Shown here piece by piece: positions 8,825 to 47,684 of a DNA stretch of 50,828 nt. Every line of letters begins with the position of its first letter. Position 1 is the first letter of the stretch. The notes under the pieces are model-generated. The model made no database searches and had not been told where the DNA came from. It worked only from the letters and a program-made list of their open reading frames with translations. The position numbers and the translations under genes are program-made. Source of the DNA: a phage; sequence record PZ452605.1. One strand, 5' to 3'.

Positions 8825-9215
8825 TTTAATGTTAGCGGCAAGAAAGGCGCTGGCGGCGGAATATGAATCACGATTCAAGATCGCCTATGAAAACGTTGAT
8901 TTTGTTCCGCCTGGTGATGGTTCGATGTGGTTAAAATTTGACTACATGGAAGCCGACACAGATCGCATATCTCTTGATAGAAAATGCGTTTCTTATGTCG
9001 GATTGGTTCAGGTTGGAATTGTTGTGCCTCCTGGCGGCGGCACTGATAAAGCGCGTTTGCTGGCTAAAGAGATTGCGAGATTTTTCTATGATGGTAGAAT
9101 GATTGAAACTGGCTATATTAGCGAGGGGGCAAAGGTCCACACATTACTAAAAAGTGAAACAGGTTGGTTCTTACCGATCCGTTTCAGTGTTAGGCTTGAT
9201 ACAAAGGAGGAATAA
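8814..9215 (+). CDS. tail terminator-like protein
   Basis: 133 aa; immediately precedes major tail gene. Confidence 0.35.
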   Translation: MHYDLMLAARKALAAEYESRFKIAYENVDFVPPGDGSMWLKFDYMEADTDRISLDRKCVSYVGLVQVGIVVPPGGGTDKARLLAKEIARFFYDGRMIETGYISEGAKVHTLLKSETGWFLPIRFSVRLDTKEE

Positions 9216-26854: not shown

Positions 26855-27784
26855 TTATAGCAGTGATTCGGGCTTGTAGAGTTTTCTTTCTACGCCCTGT
26901 TTAAAATTATCGTTAACAGGCATCATTATGTCAAGCCCTCTTTCCTCTGCCGCGATTATCACATCACGATCATCTTTCCGGCAGACTACGCGCATTCTTC
27001 TTTCTCCTTTATATCTATGCGCAACCATTTCAAGATTTGAAGGAGTAAAACAGGCCCACACCTCTTGACCAGTTGATAAATGAACATGCTGAGAATCAAC
27101 CCAATCAAGGCACAAATAGATCGTCTTATCTGTGCTACCTGTTTTAACAACAGATCCGCGCGTGTAGTCGCGAGCTAAAAACCAATCCTTTCCATCCTCA
27201 TCAATGAAAAGCACGTTACACATTTCATCATCCAGCCCGTCATCATGCACCAGGTGACAAGGTAGCGCGTGAATGTATCGACCATCCTTGACGCCGCAAT
27301 CATAATGACAATCTTCCGGCGGATATATCCCTTCATAAACACTTAAAGGTGTGCGATCGAATTTTAATGTTTTTGCCATCACTTTTTCGCAGCATTCATG
27401 ACTTGCCTGTTTCCCGAACGAGTAACCAGAAGAACGCGAAGCGCGTTTGTTTGCTCTGATCCTGTAATCCTGCGGCACTTTTCCGAGGAAGCGGCCCAAA
27501 ATGTTGATGGCCTCGCTGTAAGGTTCGCCAGTTAATTTCATTAACCAACCGATCCCCGTGTCGTTGCCGCATACGTTGCAGATCGCGCCGCCGTCGCCCT
27601 CTTCATTTAGCTTATCAGTCCATCTAAAACGATCCTTACCGCCGCAGTGTGGGCAAGGTTGATGCTTTTTGTTGAAAACATCGCTATGCAGTCCACAAAT
27701 GCTTTGTAGTGCTTCACGCCATAACCCCTTCATATATGGCAAAACATCTTCTTTCTGATAGGTCATAAAGTTTTCAGTATTCAT
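26855..27784 (-). CDS. DNA primase (zinc-ribbon + TOPRIM type)
   Basis: CPHCGGKDRFRW zinc-binding motif and second CNVCG motif; acidic DxD-type region. Confidence 0.65.
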   Translation of the reverse strand: MNTENFMTYQKEDVLPYMKGLWREALQSICGLHSDVFNKKHQPCPHCGGKDRFRWTDKLNEEGDGGAICNVCGNDTGIGWLMKLTGEPYSEAINILGRFLGKVPQDYRIRANKRASRSSGYSFGKQASHECCEKVMAKTLKFDRTPLSVYEGIYPPEDCHYDCGVKDGRYIHALPCHLVHDDGLDDEMCNVLFIDEDGKDWFLARDYTRGSVVKTGSTDKTIYLCLDWVDSQHVHLSTGQEVWACFTPSNLEMVAHRYKGERRMRVVCRKDDRDVIIAAEERGLDIMMPVNDNFKQGVERKLYKPESLL

Positions 27785-27839
27785 GGCAAACCTCAATAAA
27801 AAAGCCCAGCAAATATTATCATTTCGCTGAGCCTTATCA

Positions 27840-28316
27840 TTAGCTATTTGTGCTGTTATCACCTTTGTAGAATCGTCCGCCTGGTTCGTAGTCTGAATTT
27901 TTGACTACGCGCAACATCTCGTATTTGTCGCAACGGGTAGTAAGAGGCTTACCGTTAGAATCAAACCGCAGATCTGGACGACAAAATGATGCGCGGTATC
28001 CTTTGCATCCATTATATTTGTAGTCGTTATGCACCTTTTGTGCTCCAGCGGCTGAAATCATACCACGCTTTCGCCATTGGTTAACGACTTGCTGAGATAC
28101 GCGTAGACGTCGAGCCATAGCAGGAACACCGCCATAATACTCGATCAGAATATCCAAGCGAGATTTCAGGCTTGCTTTTACCTCATCTCGCAGGATAAGA
28201 AATCCGGTTCGGTGTTTTCGTGGCTTTTTGTCTTTACCTCGTCGCGTTCCGTTGTTACCGTTAATAGTGCGCTTGTCGATCTCACCCGTAGACACCGCAA
28301 TTCGTGCATCTTTCAT
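27840..28316 (-). CDS. HTH DNA-binding protein (Cro/YdaS-like)
   Basis: YGGVPAMARRLRVSQQVVNQWRKRG helix-turn-helix signature; Cys-containing C-terminal extension. Confidence 0.5.
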   Translation of the reverse strand: MKDARIAVSTGEIDKRTINGNNGTRRGKDKKPRKHRTGFLILRDEVKASLKSRLDILIEYYGGVPAMARRLRVSQQVVNQWRKRGMISAAGAQKVHNDYKYNGCKGYRASFCRPDLRFDSNGKPLTTRCDKYEMLRVVKNSDYEPGGRFYKGDNSTNS

Positions 28317-28404: not shown

Positions 28405-30402
28405 ATGATTCCAAATATCGAAAAACAAATATCAGCGTTAGGCGAGGCAGTAATAAAAAGCATCCAAGAGCGATTCACGGTTGGCAATATAGTGCCTTAT
28501 CCTTATCAGTGCGTTGCGTATGCCGAGATCGCAAAGCGCATGAAAAACTATGAGCATCCTTTCTTTGTTAAGGCTTCTGTGTCGGCTGGCAAAACATTGA
28601 TGTTTGCGATGGTTGCGGCGCAATGCCGCAAAATGGGATTGAAAATGATGGTCCTTGCTCGCCAGGCTGAAATTGTTGATCAGGATTCGGAAGAGATCAG
28701 CAATCTTGGAGTGCCAAACTCAATCTATTGCGCCGGACTGAAAACAAAAAGCGCATACTTTCCGATCGTGGTCGGTTCTGAGGGCACTGTAGTAAACGGA
28801 TTGTTTAAGTCGTTAGGTGATTATGTTCCGCACGTTATCGGTATTGATGAATGTCACCAGGTGGATTGGGAGGATCTCGCGGACGCGATAGAAAATAATG
28901 AATCTTACCAGCAGATGACCACTAAGAAGGATTTGCCAGTACTGATTGGAGAAGAACAGCAATTTGATTCCAATGGCGATCCAATGTTCGGAACAGGACG
29001 CACACAGTACACCGTAATAATCATGGAAATGATGCGCAGGTGTCGCGAGGCATACGGGCACGAATTGCGAATATTCGGTATGACTGGATCTGAATTTCGC
29101 GGCGTGGTTCCAATACTGGTTGAAGATAAGAACAAAAAGGGATTCTGGCGTGAGCAGGTGACTAACATAGACACAAACTACTTAATCAAATTCGGTTCGG
29201 TAGTGCCAACAAACTTCGGCGACGTAGGCGACCTGGGTTATGACCTTTCAGAGTTCGAAGCCAGTAGCGAGGATGGCGTTTCAGACTTTGACGCTAAAAC
29301 ATTGCGCAAGATGGAAGAAAAGATCCATCAAGACGCAACAATGACACAGAAAATCATGGCTAAAGTCCATGAGATATGCAAAGACAGGAACGGAGTTTTA
29401 GTTACATGCGCAGGGGAAAGGCACTGCAAGGAGGCCGCCGCCGCACTGCCGCCAGGCGTTGAATACAGGATCATAACTGGCAAGACTGGAGATAATCAGC
29501 GTAAAGAGTGGCTGAGGGAGGCATGCGAGGGAAAAGTAAAATACATCTTCCAGGTACAGGCGCTTACCACTGGCGTTAACGTTCCGTTTTGGGATACTTC
29601 GGTAATACTGAGAAAGATAGGATCTCTAACATTGCTTATCCAGCTTTTGGGGCGCGGCATGCGACTGCTTAAGCAATGGCACATTGAGCAGGGATTCAAG
29701 AAAAAAGATCATCTTGTATTGGATTTTGCAGGTACTATGGATGAGTTAGGTGATTTGTATTTCGATCCAATCCTTGAGCAAGCGCAATTCCAAAAGAGAT
29801 TTACAAACGGGAAAGAGCCTAAGACTTGTCCGATATGTGGAACGCTAAACAGCTTTTACGCTCGCCGATGTATGCACGTAGACGATAACGGGAAGCGATG
29901 TGAGCATTTTTGGACTTACAGAATTTGCGAGGACCAGGTAGATCCGAGAACGAAAAAGATAATCAAGCGCGGTTGCGGAACAAAAAACGACGTAGTGGCG
30001 AGAGTATGCCGTTGTTGCGATATTTCTCTTGTCGATCCTAACGAGAAGTTAAGCGGTAAGCACTACACCAAAAACGATTGGTGCAACGTTAAATCTTTCC
30101 GCGTTGATATGACGAAAAACCAGAAAGGAATTATTTTTTGCTATGAGCTTGAGGCCAACGGCGACACGTTCAAGGCATACGAAAGATTTTTCCCTGAGTC
30201 AGAAAGCAACATTTGCCGGACGATATGGAGAAAAATAGCATTGCAGCACATACCGGATCGCAAGATTGCTGGTATGGTGGCGAGCTATAGAAATGCTCGT
30301 AAAATAATGTCATACGCTCATCACATCATGCCGCCTGTACGCGTAACGCATCGCAAAAACGGCAAAGGTGAGGATAACATTGCAAAACGGGAGTTTGTTT
30401 AA
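28405..30402 (+). CDS. SF2 DEAD/DEAH-type DNA helicase
   Basis: 665 aa; Walker A SAGKT, motif II IDECHQ, C-terminal CxxC zinc-finger cluster. Confidence 0.7.
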   Translation: MIPNIEKQISALGEAVIKSIQERFTVGNIVPYPYQCVAYAEIAKRMKNYEHPFFVKASVSAGKTLMFAMVAAQCRKMGLKMMVLARQAEIVDQDSEEISNLGVPNSIYCAGLKTKSAYFPIVVGSEGTVVNGLFKSLGDYVPHVIGIDECHQVDWEDLADAIENNESYQQMTTKKDLPVLIGEEQQFDSNGDPMFGTGRTQYTVIIMEMMRRCREAYGHELRIFGMTGSEFRGVVPILVEDKNKKGFWREQVTNIDTNYLIKFGSVVPTNFGDVGDLGYDLSEFEASSEDGVSDFDAKTLRKMEEKIHQDATMTQKIMAKVHEICKDRNGVLVTCAGERHCKEAAAALPPGVEYRIITGKTGDNQRKEWLREACEGKVKYIFQVQALTTGVNVPFWDTSVILRKIGSLTLLIQLLGRGMRLLKQWHIEQGFKKKDHLVLDFAGTMDELGDLYFDPILEQAQFQKRFTNGKEPKTCPICGTLNSFYARRCMHVDDNGKRCEHFWTYRICEDQVDPRTKKIIKRGCGTKNDVVARVCRCCDISLVDPNEKLSGKHYTKNDWCNVKSFRVDMTKNQKGIIFCYELEANGDTFKAYERFFPESESNICRTIWRKIALQHIPDRKIAGMVASYRNARKIMSYAHHIMPPVRVTHRKNGKGEDNIAKREFV

Positions 30403-35150: not shown

Positions 35151-35341
35151 TCCATACGCTTTACCGTAACCAGTAATACACCATCATCATTGCATAAAAC
35201 ATGTTCAGTGGTGCTAAAAGCGCGCATATCTGAATAAAGTAGCGTAAGTAAAGCATGAATAAAATCCTCATGTGATATTGAATTTACGGCGCAGTGCTTC
35301 AAGATCTTGTCTATTAGCTTTTGCCTGGAACAATTCATCAT
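35147..35341 (-). CDS. hypothetical protein (start uncertain)
   Basis: 64-aa ORF overlapping upstream gene by 74 nt. Confidence 0.25.
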   Translation of the reverse strand: MMNCSRQKLIDKILKHCAVNSISHEDFIHALLTLLYSDMRAFSTTEHVLCNDDGVLLVTVKRME

Positions 35342-35663
35342 CGCCCATCTCCCCTATTCTAGCCATATCCCTGATCCAGTCGTTGCGCATACCATCCAGG
35401 CTATAAAATTCGAATCCGAAAGGCCGCTTTGACGATCCTTTGGACCAGTATTTACCGCAGACCCCATCTATATAGCCAGCCGTCATCATTCTTGCGCAAA
35501 ATTCCTTAGATGCAAGGCTGGCGAACATTCGCGGCGTAAGTCCGGCGGCCCGTGCGAGCCGCTCACATTCTCTATGCTGATAGATAAATTTGGCTATGTG
35601 CTGCCTGTTAAACCAGTCGTATGACTCACACCATTTATACAGATCAAGCAAAAACATAATCAT
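35268..35663 (-). CDS. hypothetical protein
   Basis: 131-aa ORF, start overlaps upstream stop. Confidence 0.4.
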   Translation of the reverse strand: MIMFLLDLYKWCESYDWFNRQHIAKFIYQHRECERLARAAGLTPRMFASLASKEFCARMMTAGYIDGVCGKYWSKGSSKRPFGFEFYSLDGMRNDWIRDMARIGEMGDDELFQAKANRQDLEALRRKFNIT

Positions 35664-37240
35664 CCCAGCAGTATTGGATTGACAAAAATAACACCATTAA
35701 TCACACAAACATAATTTCTTTCTTCCAGCATTGGCAGCAAGTGCCCTTCTATCCTCTTCATTACGCCAGCCTGACCAACGAAAGGTTTTACCTTTCTCGC
35801 TGATTCGTACAGGGCGCGAATATTCAGGATCCCTTTGTTAGCCTTGCCGTGCCTCGTGATCAATTCAATCAATTTACCCATTTCAGCATCATCACCAGCA
35901 TAACCAGAAGCATTGGCGGCGCTAATGTATGTTTTGCTCAACTCCTGAAACATGATCAGAGCCTCTTGCATTGTATCTACGTCGATCTCTTTCGACTTCT
36001 GCGGGTATCCAGCAGGATTAAACCAGTTGCGTATAACATGCAGGACGGAAGCAAGCCTGATCACCTGTTTATCCATTTTACCCAGCGCACCGCGTAACAT
36101 TGTATGAGAATACTTTCCTCCGTCTGCAAGATGCGGTTCCATATCCTGGCGAGCAATGTTGAGCACTCGCATAGCTGAACGGCTTATTTTCAGCGATATA
36201 TTTGATTCGCCCATGATGTTATGCACCAATTGATAATATTGGGCTTTCAATTCAGAATCCACCGCCTCATAGGTAGAATCACCATTTTCATCAATGAATG
36301 AGCGACGGCCTAAGAATGATTCCTCGCGGACCAACAAAAAACGCTCACTAACACCGATGCCTCGCGATCCAGCGTCCATTATTCCGCTTATCGTTTCATC
36401 CTGGGCTATAACGCTCATACATCCAAGCGCGCGAAAACTCATATTATTGTCAGCATTAGCGCGGGCAATTGATACGTGACCATTATCCCACGCCTTAAGC
36501 ACTAACTCACTGTTAGTCTTCCTTTCGCTATTTGCATAGGTCAAGCCTAACAGACTGTTAATACTTGTTGCTTCATCAGATATTACGGCAAAGTTACCTT
36601 GCTTGTTGTTGATTTTCGCCAAGCCTTCTGGAGTTGTATCTGAAACAGGAAAAGTTATATCACACATTTTTTCCAGCTTTTCCTCCAGATCCTCTTTTTC
36701 CTGGTATAGAGATTCCATATCAGCGCCGGATCTTTCGCTTTTCATCTCCTTTGCAAGACCTGCCAGCTTTGCCTGTATTTTCTTTCTTTCCTTGCGGCGT
36801 TGCTCGTTGATCTTCTCAACTTCCGCAATCATCGGAGCAATAGCCATGCTGTTGATCGCAGATTTACCAGTTGACGGCGGCTGGCTTGTAACGACGTAAA
36901 GCGCAGTCGGCTGATCGGTTCCGTGATAGTCAACCGTAAAGCGTCCAAGCATAGCGGCAGAAATGCAGCCGATAAAGTGCATGTAAGCCGATGATTCAGG
37001 GAATTGAACGGATCGCGCAATGCTGCGTGATAACTTGCCGACAACATCAATATCATTACCAAGAGAAATAACGGGGTAGCGATCGTGACCGCTATTCACA
37101 TCCTTTACGTCGCCCCAAAAGCTGGACGACTGGCGATAGCCGTTAGCCTGAATTGATACGCGAACTGGTGAGAGGTTCTGGCTTTCAGCCATAGCGATTA
37201 TTTGCTGTGGAGTTAATTTGTTCGTTTCTAATGAAAACAT
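35660..37240 (-). CDS. DUF3987-like P-loop NTPase
   Basis: 526 aa; P-loop-like VVTSQPPSTGKSA; largest protein of the early leftward cluster. Confidence 0.45.
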   Translation of the reverse strand: MFSLETNKLTPQQIIAMAESQNLSPVRVSIQANGYRQSSSFWGDVKDVNSGHDRYPVISLGNDIDVVGKLSRSIARSVQFPESSAYMHFIGCISAAMLGRFTVDYHGTDQPTALYVVTSQPPSTGKSAINSMAIAPMIAEVEKINEQRRKERKKIQAKLAGLAKEMKSERSGADMESLYQEKEDLEEKLEKMCDITFPVSDTTPEGLAKINNKQGNFAVISDEATSINSLLGLTYANSERKTNSELVLKAWDNGHVSIARANADNNMSFRALGCMSVIAQDETISGIMDAGSRGIGVSERFLLVREESFLGRRSFIDENGDSTYEAVDSELKAQYYQLVHNIMGESNISLKISRSAMRVLNIARQDMEPHLADGGKYSHTMLRGALGKMDKQVIRLASVLHVIRNWFNPAGYPQKSKEIDVDTMQEALIMFQELSKTYISAANASGYAGDDAEMGKLIELITRHGKANKGILNIRALYESARKVKPFVGQAGVMKRIEGHLLPMLEERNYVCVINGVIFVNPILLG

Positions 37241-37292
37241 TCGTTAGCTTCTCCTTTGTGGGCCGTAAATTTTAACGGCCCAATACTACCCC

Positions 37293-37312
37293 GTTTTGTC
37301 AAAAAGTGCTAT
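37293..37312 (-). repeat. intergenic motif copy, co-directional (minus)
   Basis: ATAGCACTTTTTGACAAAAC containing stop TAG. Confidence 0.6.
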
Positions 37313-37530
37313 TTGATCCGCTCTATTGCAACCAGAAGTCGATCAGGCTGGCGGTCGCTGTAGCATTCTCCTGTAATCCCATCCTTAAACGTAAAGTAAA
37401 GCGCCTTATGATATGAAAAACCAATCAGCCAACCTACCGCCGTTTTTTTGATGGGCCTGACTATATCGCCAGGCTTGAAAGTCTTTGTGGTAGAATGCGT
37501 TACTTTGTAACGGTTTTCACTGTTTATCAC
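37309..37530 (-). CDS. hypothetical protein
   Basis: 73-aa ORF; stop embedded in intergenic motif. Confidence 0.4.
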   Translation of the reverse strand: MINSENRYKVTHSTTKTFKPGDIVRPIKKTAVGWLIGFSYHKALYFTFKDGITGECYSDRQPDRLLVAIERIK

Positions 37531-37919
37531 AGATATTTACCCTCAAAAAGATAACAGCCGCCAGCAGAGAATCCGACCTCTTCACGGTACAGGTTCCAGC
37601 GGTCGCCGCACTCATCAAAAACATAACCAGCAATGCTTCCAAGCGGTCGCCCTTTCTCGATCTGGTATCTCTTTCCCTGCTTAAAGTGCTTTTTGCACGG
37701 CATATTATGATCTACAAACGTGCAAAGAACGGTTTTTGTGTTAATGGCGCGGTAATCATCTCGGTTTGCTGGAAGCCAGCGGCTACCCTTAACAAGCGTC
37801 TTAACCTGGAATTCTTCCACCTCGATCACATCATTACTTCCTGCAATCTTCTGATAAACCGTTTTAAAACGGCCTTTCATCAATACGTTGGTTTCATTAC
37901 AGATAACATTCATGATCAT
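37527..37919 (-). CDS. hypothetical protein
   Basis: 130-aa ORF; AAGGAG RBS. Confidence 0.4.
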   Translation of the reverse strand: MIMNVICNETNVLMKGRFKTVYQKIAGSNDVIEVEEFQVKTLVKGSRWLPANRDDYRAINTKTVLCTFVDHNMPCKKHFKQGKRYQIEKGRPLGSIAGYVFDECGDRWNLYREEVGFSAGGCYLFEGKYL

Positions 37920-37965: not shown

Positions 37966-37985
37966 CTTTTAACAAAAAGTGCTAT
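37966..37985 (-). repeat. intergenic motif copy, co-directional (minus)
   Basis: ATAGCACTTTTTGTTAAAAG containing stop TAG of methylase gene. Confidence 0.65.
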
Positions 37986-38692
37986 TTTGAGTTTGACTCA
38001 AAGACGGCGCGAGCAAAGCCGCGCGGAGTGAGGGAGCGGATCATCTTTGTGCGTGATGACTTGCCACCAGTTTTGGCCCAGCCTGGATTATCTTTGTCGT
38101 TCTCTTTCGGCAGGATTAAAGCGCGTGGAGGAATAACAAAGCCGTTGCCAGTCCAGAGGCACGTTTTCTTAAAGTAGCGATCCCGCGCCGGAATAATATC
38201 AGGGAAGTCGGGATGTTTATCATCTTCCGGCAGATAGCCAGCGTAATCGCACGGATGGAACGTATAATCAGGCTTACGCCATAACGTTGACAACTTGCCA
38301 ACCGGATTTTCGATCATGTAAGGAACACCGAAATAATCAGCTATATCAGCAGCGATTCTGCAAGTGTCGGCGGCCTCATCCTGGAACAATGGATTCTCAA
38401 GTCGTTTTTTGGCCCAATGGCGAGATCCGCTATTTGCAAGGTCGGTGCATGGTGGGAAGGCCATAATAAAATCAGGATTGCCCCACTCATTATTGATTGC
38501 CTTAACATAAAAAGCATCATCAATCCAGACGTTAACGTATTCGATATTCTTATGCTGTATGCGCACTGACTGGTAATCACCGTGATCGCCGCCGTCAGCA
38601 TTAAAGCAAATGCACTTATAGCCATTATCAGCCCAATCTTTAACGGCTTTACCAGATCCATCAAATAGGGAGAATATTAAACCTTTATACAT
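37982..38692 (-). CDS. DNA cytosine-5 methyltransferase (short orphan Dcm type)
   Basis: motif I FSLFDGSG, motif IV PPCTD catalytic Pro-Cys, motif VI ENP; GAGG RBS. Confidence 0.7.
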   Translation of the reverse strand: MYKGLIFSLFDGSGKAVKDWADNGYKCICFNADGGDHGDYQSVRIQHKNIEYVNVWIDDAFYVKAINNEWGNPDFIMAFPPCTDLANSGSRHWAKKRLENPLFQDEAADTCRIAADIADYFGVPYMIENPVGKLSTLWRKPDYTFHPCDYAGYLPEDDKHPDFPDIIPARDRYFKKTCLWTGNGFVIPPRALILPKENDKDNPGWAKTGGKSSRTKMIRSLTPRGFARAVFESNSK

Positions 38693-38702
38693 CGTCATTA
38701 CC

Positions 38703-38927
38703 TCAAAACGGAAAACAGCGCGGACAACTAGGATCGAAATCGCATCCACAATCATTAACAATCATATTGGGATCTGCAAATATTGCGCTTGATTCAAGAT
38801 CCATATCCATATCACCTAAAGCCTCATCAAGAGTCTTAATTTTATATGCCACTTCAAGCGCCGCCTCTTTATTTAGTCCGGCATCTTCTGCCATTTGAAG
38901 GCGTTCAAAAAATCCGTCCTGACTCAT
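38703..38927 (-). CDS. hypothetical acidic protein with C-terminal Cys cluster
   Basis: 74 aa; CGCDFDPSCPRC at C-terminus. Confidence 0.4.
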   Translation of the reverse strand: MSQDGFFERLQMAEDAGLNKEAALEVAYKIKTLDEALGDMDMDLESSAIFADPNMIVNDCGCDFDPSCPRCFPF

Positions 38928-41709: not shown

Positions 41710-41740
41710 TTGACGGTTAGCACCAGGATTGCGATCTAAA

Positions 41741-41828
41741 TAATCAAAAGTAATCATTCGTAATCAAATCACGTCAAAATGATGATTGCCTTTGCAAATT
41801 TGATGAGAAAAGTAATCACGTTTAATCA
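41741..41828. repeat. five TAATCA iterons at 10-bp phasing
   Basis: TAATCA at 41741, 41751, 41761, 41813, 41823; in divergent early control region. Confidence 0.6.
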
Positions 41829-42264
41829 TTGGTTGCAGGGGAGATAGTGAAACCTTCCCCTCTTGCCTCACTTTTCCGCCCGGCTGTCAGTGGTTGTTGT
41901 CTTTTGTTCACCCCTGTTACCGATTTCAGGCGGCGTGTTTCCGCGCGGTTTTCCGGTGTAGCGAAAACGGAAAAAACAAAGAAAATCCTCTATAATACAT
42001 TGAAAATAAAGATTATTTATTTATATATATCTATAATGTTTTCTTTTTGTTCTCACTGTTACAGTGCTTTTTGTTGGTTATGGTGTGGTTGTGTGTGGGT
42101 ATATATGGATAGTTGCGCGCGCGGCGGATTGCATATGTATATATACTTTTTCCGGCGGATTGCGTTAACAGCGTGAACAGAAAAATAACAGCCGCGAAAT
42201 CAATAACTTGCGCATGATTTTGTAGTTTTTCGATATTGGTAACGTTTTGAATACAACAAAAACA

Positions 42265-42292
42265 TTGACACGCACCAAATAGCTTTTATAAT
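42265..42292 (+). promoter_or_regulatory. consensus sigma70 promoter (TTGACA-16-TATAAT)
   Basis: perfect -35 and -10 hexamers with 16-nt spacer, 30 nt upstream of ATG 42324. Confidence 0.65.
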
Positions 42293-46954: not shown

Positions 46955-47335
46955 ATGGTTAACATCCGAAAAATCCGCGTCGGCACTAAATTCTTAGTTA
47001 CTTACGCAATTCCAGATAGCGGAATGAAGAAGGGCCAGATTGTTAAGGTTGATAGCAAAAGATTCGGAATCCCTGGTATCAATGGCTATCTAATCAATAA
47101 AGATCTTGGATTCGACGGATTCGCTATCCGTTCGCTTGAGGGTATTGTTGCCACCCTTAAACGAATCACCAATCATCGCGGCTGCCCAATCAAGACGATT
47201 AAAGCGCCAACCAATTACGGCAAACTGGATAATCGTCGAATCCGCCGCCTGGCGCGTAACGCGTTAAAATTCCGTGGCGTAGGCGATGATTTCTACTATG
47301 GATACAAGAGGATTGCGCGCAATGCTGGGAAATAA
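46955..47335 (+). CDS. hypothetical basic protein
   Basis: 126-aa ORF with AAGAGG RBS. Confidence 0.4.
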   Translation: MVNIRKIRVGTKFLVTYAIPDSGMKKGQIVKVDSKRFGIPGINGYLINKDLGFDGFAIRSLEGIVATLKRITNHRGCPIKTIKAPTNYGKLDNRRIRRLARNALKFRGVGDDFYYGYKRIARNAGK

Positions 47336-47684
47336 CAATAACGCAACGAATCCTAAGCCACCTTTTGATTTTCATTCCGCAATGATTGCGGTATTATCAA
47401 TGCTACTTTTTCTTTATAGCATGAGGGCGCTACTATGGTTTTTTAACGCATTGAAACGACTGTTTAAGCCGGAATACCGGATCGTATTTTGCCGCGACTG
47501 TTCTACTTATCATGTGCAGCGACGCAGATTAGGCGGCAATTGGCACTATGTTACAGATGACTTTTTCGGCATCATTGCCACTGAATTTAAGTGTTATAGC
47601 GATGCTTATATGTACGTCAAGAAGCGCCACCGCTTACGCAAGTGTCGTTTTTCCGCACTGATTCACGTTAATGATTGTTACTGA
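47322..47684 (+). CDS. membrane protein with C-terminal Cys-rich region
   Basis: 120 aa; hydrophobic helix then CRDC...C...C. Confidence 0.35.
   Translation: MLGNNNNATNPKPPFDFHSAMIAVLSMLLFLYSMRALLWFFNALKRLFKPEYRIVFCRDCSTYHVQRRRLGGNWHYVTDDFFGIIATEFKCYSDAYMYVKKRHRLRKCRFSALIHVNDCY

What the first reader, a model, noticed from the sequence alone, without database searches (positions are those of the whole stretch)
35660..37240. Large DUF3987-like P-loop protein among early genes
This 526-aa protein has a P-loop-like PSTGKS and is the only large protein in the leftward early cluster, co-oriented with the Dcm methylase. Candidate roles are helicase loading, replication initiation or host takeover; the family is poorly characterised.
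Basis: inference. Interest (0 to 1): 0.45.

Follow-up and report, generated by a model that had tools for sequence, protein, structure and literature searches.

The report
MCM-like replicative helicase of T1-like phage
The 526-residue protein is a real, highly conserved member of the DUF3987 family, a ring-helicase family related to the archaeal/eukaryotic MCM motor, and it is most likely the DNA-unwinding engine this T1-like coliphage uses to copy its genome; relatives are already annotated as helicases, so it is largely an ordinary finding.

Summary
The ORF at 35660-37240 (minus strand, 526 aa) exists exactly as described and contains QPPSTGKS. It matches Pfam DUF3987 (151.8 bits against a cut-off of 27) and PHROG 2373 'DNA helicase'. 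The window is a Warwickvirus (Drexlerviridae, T1-like). Proteins 99.6% identical occur in sequenced phages, some annotated 'DNA helicase'.

Relatives are fused to DnaG-type zinc ribbons, PriCT-2 or the DnaB N-terminal domain. In distant phages the gene lies next to a primase. The phage's other 'helicase' is a RadD homolog, and no polymerase gene was recognised.

Best reading: this is the phage's replicative (possibly self-loading) hexameric helicase. It would work with the separate T7-type primase and, by inference, host Pol III.

The roles it offered (loader, host takeover) are mostly not supported, and 'poorly characterised' is partly outdated, since one member was shown to be a 5'-3' helicase in 2025. 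Interest is low to moderate.

The parts
35660..37240 (-). Gene for the 526-aa DUF3987-family (SF6, MCM-like AAA+) helicase; the stop codon is at 35660-35662
   Evidence: ORF. Pfam PF13148, 151.8 bits. PHROG 2373 'DNA helicase', E=1e-243. AF2 model pLDDT 92.7, pTM 0.90. Best structural matches are MCM.
37061..37240 (-). N-terminal helical module (aa 1-60) with invariant W42. It is specific to stand-alone family members and is replaced by primase, PriCT or DnaB_N domains in fusion proteins.
   Evidence: Helices 11-21, 25-33 and 36-41. W42 is invariant in 73 sequences. In fusion proteins the match to the query starts at about residue 59-69. Fusion partners are listed.
36860..36883 (-). Walker A motif / P-loop, QPPSTGKS (aa 120-127)
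   Evidence: G125 and K126 are invariant; Q120, P121 and S127 are at least 90% conserved in 73 diverse sequences. Coordinates verified. The motif follows strand 115-119 and starts helix 126-168.
36656..36859 (-). Long charged helical hairpin (aa 128-195) inserted between Walker A and Walker B
   Evidence: Helices 126-168 and 172-191. 45% of residues are charged. The Walker A Lys to Walker B Glu distance is 92-106 aa in all 73 sequences, so the insertion is family-wide. The only hits to this stretch are weak coiled-coil-type Pfam matches.
36572..36592 (-). Walker B motif, FAVISDE (aa 217-223); E223 is the candidate catalytic glutamate
   Evidence: E223 is invariant. D222 is replaced by Ala in several homologs. 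The motif lies on strand 217-221.
36431..36478 (-). Beta-hairpin (aa 255-270) immediately before the sensor-1 strand, carrying invariant R260; candidate pre-sensor-1 beta-hairpin that would contact DNA in the pore
   Evidence: Strands 255-258 and 267-270, followed by strand 273-279. R260 is invariant in 73 sequences. The role is inferred by analogy with MCM.
36338..36409 (-). Sensor-1 region IAQDE (aa 278-282) through S298-E-R300-F301 (candidate trans arginine finger, resembling the MCM 'SRF' motif)
   Evidence: A279 and Q280 are at least 90% conserved. G296 and R300 are invariant and E299 is at least 90% conserved. The SERF motif lies just before strand 301-305. The likeness to the MCM motif comes from my own knowledge.
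36026..36256 (-). Alpha-helical lid domain (aa 329-405) with 383-RGALGKMDK-391 (candidate sensor 2)
   Evidence: Helices 329-343, 354-371, 380-387 and 389-405. K388 is invariant. G384 is at least 90% conserved across the 73 diverse sequences, and R383 is invariant among the 19 closer homologs.
35663..35836 (-). C-terminal winged-helix domain (aa 469-526)
35268..35663 (-). 131-aa winged-helix protein whose ATG overlaps the helicase stop codon (ATGA), implying translational coupling
37294..37314 (-). Copy of the T1-like 21-nt intergenic repeat (AAATAGCACTTTTTGACAAAA), ending 53 nt upstream of the helicase ATG, followed 22 nt later by a TAAAAT hexamer resembling a -10 element
   Evidence: 18 copies in the window against 0.03 expected. 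Alignment of five copies. The repeat is published for phage TLS with unknown function (PMC11447400).
26855..27862 (-). Stand-alone T7/DnaG-type primase, the presumed partner of the helicase (the relatives' annotation starts about 26 codons further in)
   Evidence: Pfam Zn_Ribbon_Prim, 56 bits. PHROG 510 'DNA primase' matches only positions 6-316 of a 667-position profile, which I read as the primase half of primase-helicase fusions. Annotated 'DNA primase' in phage tiwna.
28405..30402 (+). Second 'helicase' of the phage: a RadD-like SF2 repair/recombination helicase, followed by a VRR-NUC nuclease gene. It is context for the finding, not the fork helicase.
   Evidence: Pfam ResIII and Helicase_C. 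Matches E. coli RadD 6jde_B at E=6.9e-40. The VRR-NUC gene is annotated downstream in tiwna.

Best explanation
The gene encodes a DUF3987-family AAA+ ATPase of the MCM-related (superfamily 6) helicase lineage, and it is the phage's own replicative DNA helicase.

Proposed mechanism, with the basis for each step:
1. Ring assembly (inferred). The protein assembles into a ring, presumably a hexamer. ATP would bind at subunit interfaces, held by Walker A K126 and Walker B E223 of one subunit and the arginine finger R300 of its neighbour.
2. Translocation (inferred). ATP hydrolysis would drive the R260-bearing beta-hairpin, which projects into the pore, along single-stranded DNA and so unwind the duplex.
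3. Loading (inferred). The C-terminal winged helix, and possibly the translationally coupled 131-aa winged-helix protein, would help place the ring on phage DNA.
4. Primase docking (inferred). The N-terminal helical module occupies the position where relatives carry fused primase or DnaB N-terminal domains. It would therefore dock the separately encoded T7-type primase.
5. DNA synthesis (inferred). I recognised no polymerase gene in the window, so synthesis would be by host Pol III.

Shown here: family membership, the MCM-like fold, motif conservation, and fusion and neighbourhood links to primases. Shown only for a distant family member in the literature: ATP-dependent 5'->3' helicase activity. 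Everything else is inferred: oligomeric state, polarity, partners, and essentiality in this phage.
For: Family membership:
- Pfam DUF3987, 151.8 bits against a cut-off of 27. PHROG 2373 'DNA helicase', E=1e-243.

Fold:
- AF2 model with pLDDT 92.7 and pTM 0.90.
- All top 50 Foldseek hits in the PDB are MCM subunits.

Motifs:
- Invariant in 73 sequences at 24-87% identity: G125/K126, E223, R260, G296, R300 and K388.
- These residues map to the P-loop, the Walker B strand, the hairpin before the sensor-1 strand, the pre-beta5 'SERF' motif and the lid.

Fusions in relatives:
- CHC2 DnaG zinc ribbon + DUF3987 (P0150).
- DnaB N-terminal domain + DUF3987 (P0193).
- PriCT-2 + DUF3987 (P0228).

Neighbourhood:
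- In six distant phage contigs at 32-39% identity, the gene lies in one module with a RadD-like SF2 helicase (6 of 6).
- A DnaG-type primase is adjacent or within two genes in 5 of 6. The primase overlaps the helicase start in L007 and follows 8 nt after the stop in L005.
- The same modules carry DUF3799 exonuclease, ERF or AAA_24, and SSB genes. Vibrio phage K164 shows the same arrangement.

No alternative fork helicase in this phage:
- The 665-aa helicase is a RadD homolog, E=6.9e-40.
- The primase covers only the primase half of primase-helicase profiles.
- No ORF of 150 aa or more was recognised as a polymerase. The TLS paper states that T1-like phages lack one (PMC11447400).

Distribution: full-length homologs in 914 phage records, with genus counts that parallel those of the primase.

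Literature:
- DUF3987 was predicted to be an SF6 replicative helicase; the dns gene of phage N4, essential for replication, is a member (PMC4889955).
- AgaPH (PriCT-DUF3987) unwinds 5'-overhang and forked DNA. Its activity is abolished by Walker A or Walker B mutations, and it binds its primase-polymerase (PMC11724360).
Against: - No experiment exists on this protein or on any T1-like homolog.
- The gene lies 7.8 kb from the primase and on the far side of the lysis cassette, not next to the primase as in the distant relatives.
- The T1-like phage literature names the SF2 helicase as the replication helicase and does not discuss this gene (PMC11447400).
- HMMER finds no sequence-level link to MCM or any other AAA+ family. 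The MCM link therefore rests on a predicted structure and on a published profile-profile result.
- Features typical of MCM proper are missing from the model. The N-terminal region has no OB-fold, and there is no beta-hairpin insert in helix 2.
- The Walker A motif has Gln where the canonical first Gly or Ala would be.
- Use of host DnaB at the fork is not excluded.
- The assignments of sensor 1, arginine finger and sensor 2 follow from motif order and position in the model, not from a residue-level superposition.
Confidence: 0.68

Rival explanations
1. Origin-recognising initiator that melts DNA. The protein would bind a phage origin through its winged helix, open it, and then hand over to host DnaB rather than serving as the travelling fork helicase. 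This would resemble the initiator function of SF3 proteins or of plasmid and island Rep proteins.
For: - A C-terminal winged helix is present, and the translationally coupled 131-aa protein is also a winged helix.
- No other initiator-like gene was recognised in the window.
- The gene is separated from the primase / SF2 helicase module.
- The literature proposes origin recognition for winged-helix domains in such proteins (PMC5862659).
Against: - The DnaB N-terminal-domain fusion, and the fusions and adjacency with primases, point to a fork function.
- The characterised member AgaPH unwinds forked DNA.
- No iterons were found in or beside the gene.
- The two roles are not mutually exclusive.
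Confidence: 0.12
2. Recombination or branch-migration motor. The protein would be a ring translocase like ComM or RuvB that processes recombination intermediates during T1-type concatemer formation, rather than a replication fork helicase.
For: - In relatives the gene travels with recombination genes: exonuclease, ERF or AAA_24, SSB, RadD-like helicase and VRR-NUC.
Against: - The fusions are to primase domains and to the DnaB N-terminal domain, not to recombination domains.
- The phage already carries a RadD-like helicase with a VRR-NUC nuclease, which could cover branch processing.
- N4 dns, a family member, is required for replication.
Confidence: 0.09
3. Helicase loader or adaptor: an AAA+ protein that recruits and loads host DnaB onto phage DNA, like DnaC or lambda P.
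For: - It is an AAA+-type ATPase in a phage for which I found no DnaB-family gene.
Against: - The protein has a pore-hairpin-like element with an invariant Arg and an MCM-like arginine finger.
- At 526 aa with a winged helix it is much larger than known loaders (my knowledge).
- A DnaB N-terminal domain is fused to DUF3987 in place of the DnaB motor (P0193). This implies that DUF3987 substitutes for DnaB rather than loading it.
Confidence: 0.05
4. Host-takeover or anti-defence ATPase unrelated to replication.
For: - The gene lies among small genes of unknown function in the leftward cluster.
- BrxL and RavA, AAA+ proteins of the same clade that are not replicative helicases, appear as weaker structural matches.
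Against: - No PADLOC match.
- The gene is near-universal and well conserved across T1-like phages, unlike typical accessory takeover genes.
- In distant phages the gene is in replication modules and fused to primases.
Confidence: 0.03

Closest known systems
DUF3987 family (Pfam PF13148), including AgaPH (the PriCT-DUF3987 helicase of a Seonamhaeicola mobile element) and the dns protein of phage N4
   Same: - Strong Pfam membership.
[quoted passage not shown]
- Genetic association with primases.
- AgaPH is an oligomeric, ATP/dATP-dependent helicase that binds its primase-polymerase.
- N4 dns is essential for replication.
   Different: - This protein is stand-alone, with a short helical N-terminal module instead of a PriCT domain (AgaPH) or a fused AEP (archaeo-eukaryotic-type) primase (N4 dns).
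- Its presumed primase partner is a DnaG/T7-type enzyme encoded 7.8 kb away, not an adjacent AEP primase-polymerase.
- No polymerase gene was recognised in the phage.
- Activity and polarity are untested here.
MCM helicases (archaeal MCM, eukaryotic Mcm2-7, MCM8/9; Pfam PF00493)
   Same: - AAA+ core with a hairpin before sensor 1, an S-x-R-F arginine-finger motif before beta5, a helical lid, and a C-terminal winged helix.
   Different: - No sequence-level match by HMMER.
- The model shows no N-terminal OB-fold or zinc domain and no evident helix-2 beta-hairpin insert.
- It has a family-specific helical hairpin of about 65 residues after the P-loop.
- The one characterised DUF3987 helicase runs 5'->3', whereas MCM runs 3'->5' (established knowledge).
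Helicases of staphylococcal mobile islands: SCCmec Cch and the SaPI5 primase-helicase (DUF927-type)
   Different: They belong to a different Pfam family and have much lower structural similarity than MCM. They sit on islands and satellites, not on a virulent phage.
T7 gp4 / DnaB-DnaG type primase-helicase pairs (SF4)
   Same: The functional logic is the same: a zinc-ribbon/Toprim-type primase works with a ring helicase. Relatives even carry the DnaB N-terminal domain fused to DUF3987. The window's primase matches only the primase half of primase-helicase profiles.

Membership tests
DUF3987 (Pfam PF13148) | Match to the family HMM above the curated gathering score | tested here: met
   151.8 bits against 27, E=3.7e-44, residues 81-430 on profile positions 3-350 of 364. 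All 73 aligned relatives also match.
DUF3987 (Pfam PF13148) | [quoted passage not shown] | tested here: met
   G125/K126 and E223 are invariant in 73 sequences. The motifs read QPPSTGKS and FAVISDE.
DUF3987 (Pfam PF13148) | C-terminal winged-helix domain (Kazlauskas et al. 2016) | tested here: met
   [not shown]
DUF3987 (Pfam PF13148) | Association with a primase, by fusion or adjacency | tested here: met
   Met in relatives: fusions to Zn_ribbon_DnaG, PriCT_2 and DnaB_N, and adjacency in 5 of 6 distant phage contigs plus Vibrio phage K164. In this window a primase is present but 7.8 kb away.
DUF3987 (Pfam PF13148) | ATP-dependent DNA helicase activity (5'->3' in AgaPH) | not testable with these tools
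   Shown only for AgaPH (PMC11724360).
MCM family proper (Pfam PF00493) | Sequence match to the MCM family model | tested here: not met
   No MCM hit for any of 73 members at E<=1. No PDB hit by sequence or by profile. A published HHsearch link exists for another DUF3987 member.
MCM family proper (Pfam PF00493) | AAA+ core fold closest to MCM | tested here: met
   [not shown]
MCM family proper (Pfam PF00493) | Pre-sensor-1 beta-hairpin with a basic residue that contacts DNA | tested here: met
   Hairpin 255-258 / 267-270 lies directly before strand 273-279 and carries invariant R260. This was judged from the model's secondary structure, not from a superposition.
MCM family proper (Pfam PF00493) | Arginine finger in an S-R-F motif before beta5 | tested here: met
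   S298-E299-R300-F301 precedes strand 301-305. R300 is invariant. The equivalence to the MCM motif is inferred from position.
MCM family proper (Pfam PF00493) | N-terminal OB-fold / zinc-binding domain | tested here: not met
   Residues 1-96 of the model are helical with one unstructured stretch (aa 42-65), and only a short hairpin at 101-111 follows. No Pfam domain is found there.
MCM family proper (Pfam PF00493) | Helix-2 beta-hairpin insert | tested here: not met
   Helix 204-214 before the Walker B strand is uninterrupted. Instead there is a helical hairpin at 128-195 after the P-loop. This was judged from secondary structure only.
MCM family proper (Pfam PF00493) | Hexameric ring; 3'->5' translocation | not testable with these tools
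   No multimer prediction or assay was available.
DnaB / T7 gp4 helicases (SF4, RecA fold) | RecA-type motor domain (DnaB_C) | tested here: not met
   [not shown]
DnaC / IstB-type helicase loaders (AAA+ initiator clade) | AAA+ core of the initiator/loader clade | tested here: not met
   [not shown]

The most novel reading that the evidence does not exclude
T1-like coliphages run a hybrid replisome. The fork helicase would be an MCM-related AAA+ ring with the polarity of a bacterial helicase (5'->3', as reported for AgaPH). It would be coupled to a T7/DnaG-type primase and to the host Pol III holoenzyme. The family-specific charged helical hairpin (aa 128-195) or the N-terminal module would serve as the coupling surface, and the translationally coupled 131-aa winged-helix protein would act as a dedicated loading or origin factor. 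That would make T1-like phages a tractable E. coli model for how an MCM-type motor was rewired to work on the lagging strand of a bacterial replisome.
Probability: 0.3. Interest if true: 0.55.

Novelty: already known. Interest (0 to 1): 0.3.

Why it matters
T1-like phages (Drexlerviridae) are among the most commonly isolated coliphages and Klebsiella phages, yet how they replicate is poorly defined. A 2024 analysis of the archetype phage TLS names the SF2 helicase as the replication helicase. That protein is a RadD homolog.

The evidence here points instead to the DUF3987 protein as the fork helicase. This gives a concrete candidate for genetic and biochemical tests. It is also a target for understanding how a phage without an identified polymerase gene would use host Pol III.

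More broadly, no DUF3987 structure was detectable in the PDB by sequence. The one characterised member has the opposite polarity to MCM. An abundant, easily expressed E. coli phage protein would therefore be a good system for that mechanistic question.

None of this changes the classification. The family assignment and helicase prediction are already in the literature and in RefSeq annotations.

Tried and rejected
- Sequence and profile searches of the PDB with the protein and with the 73-sequence alignment gave only coiled-coil noise from the charged hairpin, such as augmin and mitofusin.
- NCBIfam gave no hit and PADLOC gave no hit.
- Scanning all 73 relatives against Pfam at E<=1 showed no recurring weak hit to MCM, Mg-chelatase or AAA families. 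The MCM link cannot be reproduced with HMMER alone.
- The N-terminal ~400 residues of most long fusion proteins remained unassigned by Pfam even at E<=1.
- Literature searches for escape mutants or defence triggers mapping to this helicase in Drexlerviridae found nothing specific. Searches for classical T1 genetics (DNA-negative amber mutants, host dna gene requirements) found nothing readable.
- A repeat search in and around the gene found no iteron-like array, and the promoter and terminator scans were at chance level.
- The 496-aa 'replicative DNA helicase' that fills the same slot in Skatevirus seszw showed no significant similarity to the DUF3987 profile by hhalign, probability 0.8%. It therefore could not be used as a further relative.
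- A residue-level comparison with MCM was not possible.
Full report
**Observation.**
An AGGAG ribosome-binding site lies 10 nt upstream.
- The P-loop-like string is 120-QPPSTGKS-127.
- Among the genes annotated in the near-identical phage tiwna, it is the only protein above 259 aa in the leftward cluster running from about 34.8 to 41.7 kb.
- It is co-oriented with a methyltransferase gene at 37982..38761. That gene matches PHROG 757 and carries FDGSG, PPC and ENP motifs.
- Whether these are 'early' genes cannot be tested here.

**What the window is.** The region is 98% identical at the DNA level to Escherichia phages tiwna, swan01, tonijn and others of genus Warwickvirus (Drexlerviridae, the T1-like phages). 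The protein itself is 99.6% identical to proteins in deposited phages such as swan01, MartyMcPhage and SECphi27. In RefSeq records of these phages the homolog is annotated 'DNA helicase' or 'putative helicase'. In other records it is 'hypothetical protein'.

**Family.**
- Pfam gives DUF3987 (PF13148) at 151.8 bits against a gathering score of 27, over residues 81-430.
- PHROGs gives phrog_2373 'DNA helicase' at E=1e-243. NCBIfam and PADLOC give nothing.
- An exhaustive phmmer scan of 1.84 billion cluster representatives finds 2,621 relatives at E<=1e-3 and 159 at E<=1e-30.
- tblastn finds full-length homologs in 914 phage records, mostly Klebsiella, Escherichia, Salmonella and Shigella phages. 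The gene is therefore real, abundant and conserved.

**Structure.** An AlphaFold2 model built on a 73-sequence alignment (24-87% identity to the query) is confident, with mean pLDDT 92.7 and pTM 0.90.
- No solved structure is detectable by sequence or by profile.
- The next hits are RavA (11.8), MCM8 (11.2), the SCCmec Cch helicase (9.6), BchI (9.4), ComM (9.1), BrxL (8.7) and the SaPI5 primase-helicase (8.2).
- All top 50 Foldseek hits in the PDB are MCM subunits.

**Anatomy**.

| Residues | Element | Conservation and notes |
|---|---|---|
| 1-60 | Short helical N-terminal module | W42 invariant |
| 115-119 | Strand leading into Walker A | |
| 120-127 | Walker A | G125/K126 invariant |
| 128-195 | Charged helical hairpin | Family-wide: the Walker A to Walker B distance is 92-106 aa in all 73 sequences |
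| 217-223 | Walker B, FAVISDE | E223 invariant; D222 variable |
| 255-270 | Beta-hairpin directly before the next core strand | R260 invariant. This is the position of the pre-sensor-1 hairpin that contacts DNA in MCM-type motors (inference) |
| 278-282 | IAQDE at the end of that strand | Candidate sensor 1 |
| 298-301 | S-E-R-F before strand 301-305 | R300 invariant. Resembles the MCM 'SRF' arginine finger (my knowledge; positional inference) |
| 329-405 | Helical lid with RGALGKMDK | K388 invariant |
| 469-526 | C-terminal winged helix | |

Two features of MCM proper are missing from the model. There is no N-terminal OB-fold or zinc domain, and helix 204-214 has no hairpin insert. HMMER sees no MCM similarity in any of the 73 relatives. 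The protein therefore belongs to a sister family of MCM, not to the MCM family itself.

**Evidence from relatives.**
- Long relatives carry the DUF3987 module at the C-terminus of fusions. Partners include a CHC2 DnaG-type zinc ribbon (P0150), a PriCT-2 domain (P0228) and, tellingly, the DnaB N-terminal domain (P0193), where DUF3987 stands in place of the DnaB motor. Most other N-terminal regions have no Pfam assignment.
- On six long phage contigs that encode stand-alone homologs at 32-39% identity, the gene is always in one module with a RadD-like SF2 helicase.
- In five of the six, a DnaG/T7-type primase is adjacent or within two genes. The primase overlaps the helicase start in L007 and follows 8 nt after the stop in L005.
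- The same modules carry DUF3799 exonuclease, ERF or AAA_24 recombinase, and SSB genes. Vibrio phage K164 has the same arrangement with a more divergent DUF3987.
- These are the same gene types that the window carries at about 21-31 kb: exonuclease VIII, Erf, SSB, primase, SF2 helicase and VRR-NUC. In Drexlerviridae the helicase gene has simply been separated from its module.
- Genus counts of phage records holding the primase and the DUF3987 protein run in parallel for Klebsiella, Escherichia, Shigella and Citrobacter.

**What else could unwind the fork.**
- The 665-aa 'ATP-dependent helicase' (28405-30402) is a clear homolog of E. coli RadD (E=6.9e-40). RadD is an SF2 repair/recombination enzyme. 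Here its gene is followed by a VRR-NUC nuclease gene.
- The primase (26855-27862) has the Zn_Ribbon_Prim domain. It matches only positions 6-316 of a 667-position PHROG profile, which I read as the primase half of primase-helicase fusions.
- I recognised no polymerase gene, and the TLS paper says the same for T1 and TLS.
- The DUF3987 protein is therefore the only phage-encoded ring-helicase candidate. The remaining alternative is host DnaB.

**Literature.**
- Kazlauskas et al. (2016, PMC4889955) classed phage DUF3987 proteins as divergent SF6 helicases related to MCM. They noted the C-terminal winged helix and the primase association, predicted that these proteins are replicative helicases, and pointed out that the replication-essential dns protein of phage N4 is a member.
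- A 2018 survey lists DUF3987 among helicase-like ATPases fused to archaeo-eukaryotic primases (PMC5862659).
- In 2025 a PriCT-DUF3987 protein, AgaPH, was purified. [quoted passage not shown] It uses ATP or dATP and is inactivated by Walker A or Walker B mutations (PMC11724360).
- By contrast, the 2024 TLS genome paper treats the SF2 protein as the replication helicase and does not discuss the DUF3987 gene.

**Most likely mechanism.** The protein would form an ATP-driven ring helicase that unwinds phage DNA at the fork.
- Nucleotide would bind between subunits (K126 and E223 in cis, R300 in trans).
- The R260 hairpin would pull ssDNA through the pore.
- The winged helix, and perhaps the translationally coupled 131-aa winged-helix protein, would aid loading.
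- The N-terminal module would dock the separate primase, and host Pol III would synthesise DNA.
- Family, fold, motif conservation and genomic association are shown here. Helicase activity is shown only for a distant relative. Ring formation, polarity, partners and essentiality are inferred.
- I put this reading at about 0.68.

**Rivals.**
- An initiator that hands over to DnaB: 0.12. This is not exclusive of the main reading.
- A ComM/RuvB-like branch-migration motor: 0.09.
- A DnaC-like loader: 0.05.
- A takeover or anti-defence ATPase: 0.03.

**Surroundings.**
- The helicase stop codon overlaps the start of a 131-aa ORF (ATGA).
- Ending 53 nt upstream of the helicase ATG lies one of 18 copies of the 21-nt repeat AAATAGCACTTTTTGTTAAAA. 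This repeat is already published for TLS, and its function is an open question.

**Verdict.**
- The protein is best read as the phage's MCM-like replicative helicase rather than a loader or takeover factor.
- This is already implied by database annotation and by the 2016 and 2025 papers, so novelty is low ('already known').
- The residual interest is that no T1-like member has been tested, no DUF3987 structure was detectable in the PDB by sequence, and the T1-like phage literature credits a RadD-like enzyme with the helicase role.
- The family may also combine an MCM-type motor with bacterial-type polarity in a replisome that otherwise depends on the host.

Noticed in passing
window, 18 sites. 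Plus strand: 1564, 26764, 28326, 30816, 31887, 43052, 44390, 45568, 48174. Minus strand: 6191, 9947, 20739, 35132, 37294, 37967, 40002, 41304, 41691.: The 21-nt repeat AAATAGCACTTTTTGTTAAAA occurs 18 times at up to 3 mismatches, against 0.03 expected. It is the published T1/TLS intergenic repeat of unknown function (PMC11447400). In the five leftward-cluster copies that I aligned, a hexamer resembling a -10 element follows about 22 nt downstream (TATAGT, CATAAT or TAAAAT, often preceded by TGG). That spacing is too long for a canonical -35/-10 promoter. Three weaker copies (6191, 9947, 20739) lie antisense to the rightward structural genes, whereas the TLS paper describes all copies as co-directional with transcription.
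   Followed up: partly
window 35268-35663 (-): A 131-aa protein is translationally coupled to the helicase through an ATGA overlap. Homologs were found only in T1-like phages and phage-sized metagenomic contigs. Related phages label it 'YdbL', but it has no Pfam support. It is predicted to be a generic winged helix, and its function is unknown. It could be a loading or origin factor, or a regulator.
   Followed up: yes
window 37527-37913 (-); also 8829-9215 (+) and 47298-47684 (+): SECphi27 belongs to the same genus, and its helicase is 99.6% identical. A '128-aa protein of unknown function' from SECphi27 was reported to trigger the Mokosh type I defence system (bioRxiv 10.1101/2022.08.27.505566). 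The window has three ATG ORFs of exactly 128 aa. One of them (37527-37913, phrog_2684) lies two genes upstream of the helicase. The text I read does not say which one is the trigger.
   Followed up: partly
window 41740-42290: A non-coding region of about 550 nt lies between the leftward cluster and the rightward genes. It contains a very AT-rich stretch (GC 0.23 at 41950-42049), short repeats (AAAAGTAATCA twice, TATATA runs) and a perfect sigma-70 consensus promoter at 42265-42292. It is a candidate divergent-promoter region and/or replication origin. The TLS paper reports finding no origin-like iterons.
   Followed up: partly
window 28405-30402 (+): The phage's annotated 'ATP-dependent helicase' is a homolog of the E. 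coli repair helicase RadD (6jde_B, E=6.9e-40). In related phages it is followed by a VRR-NUC nuclease gene. This suggests a fork-repair or recombination role rather than the replication-initiation role assigned to it in the TLS paper.
   Followed up: partly
window 37262-37283 (-): The hairpin GGGCCGT-N8-ACGGCCC lies between the 21-nt repeat and the helicase ribosome-binding site. The TAAAAT hexamer resembling a -10 element sits in its loop, and no T-run follows. It might modulate expression or transcript stability of the helicase gene.
   Followed up: no
proteins P0227, P0231, P0233, P0241, P0244, P0261, P0264, P0237, P0245, P0257 (not in the window): Many DUF3987 fusion proteins of 800-970 aa have N-terminal regions of about 320-550 residues with no Pfam match even at E<=1. 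These may be undescribed primase or polymerase domains.
   Followed up: partly
L009:6444-7934 (Salmonella phage seszw, Skatevirus): In this related small siphovirus, the same primase / SF2-helicase / recombination module holds a 496-aa 'replicative DNA helicase'. It has no Pfam family and no detectable similarity to DUF3987 (hhalign probability 0.8%). It does match the C-terminal halves of primase-helicase PHROGs. This may be a non-orthologous replacement of the helicase slot.
   Followed up: partly
phage database hits: About 20 records named 'Campylobacter phage', with host Campylobacter jejuni, carry T1-like homologs of this helicase, the neighbouring DNA and the primase. That is an unexpected host label for Drexlerviridae-type sequence.
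   Followed up: no
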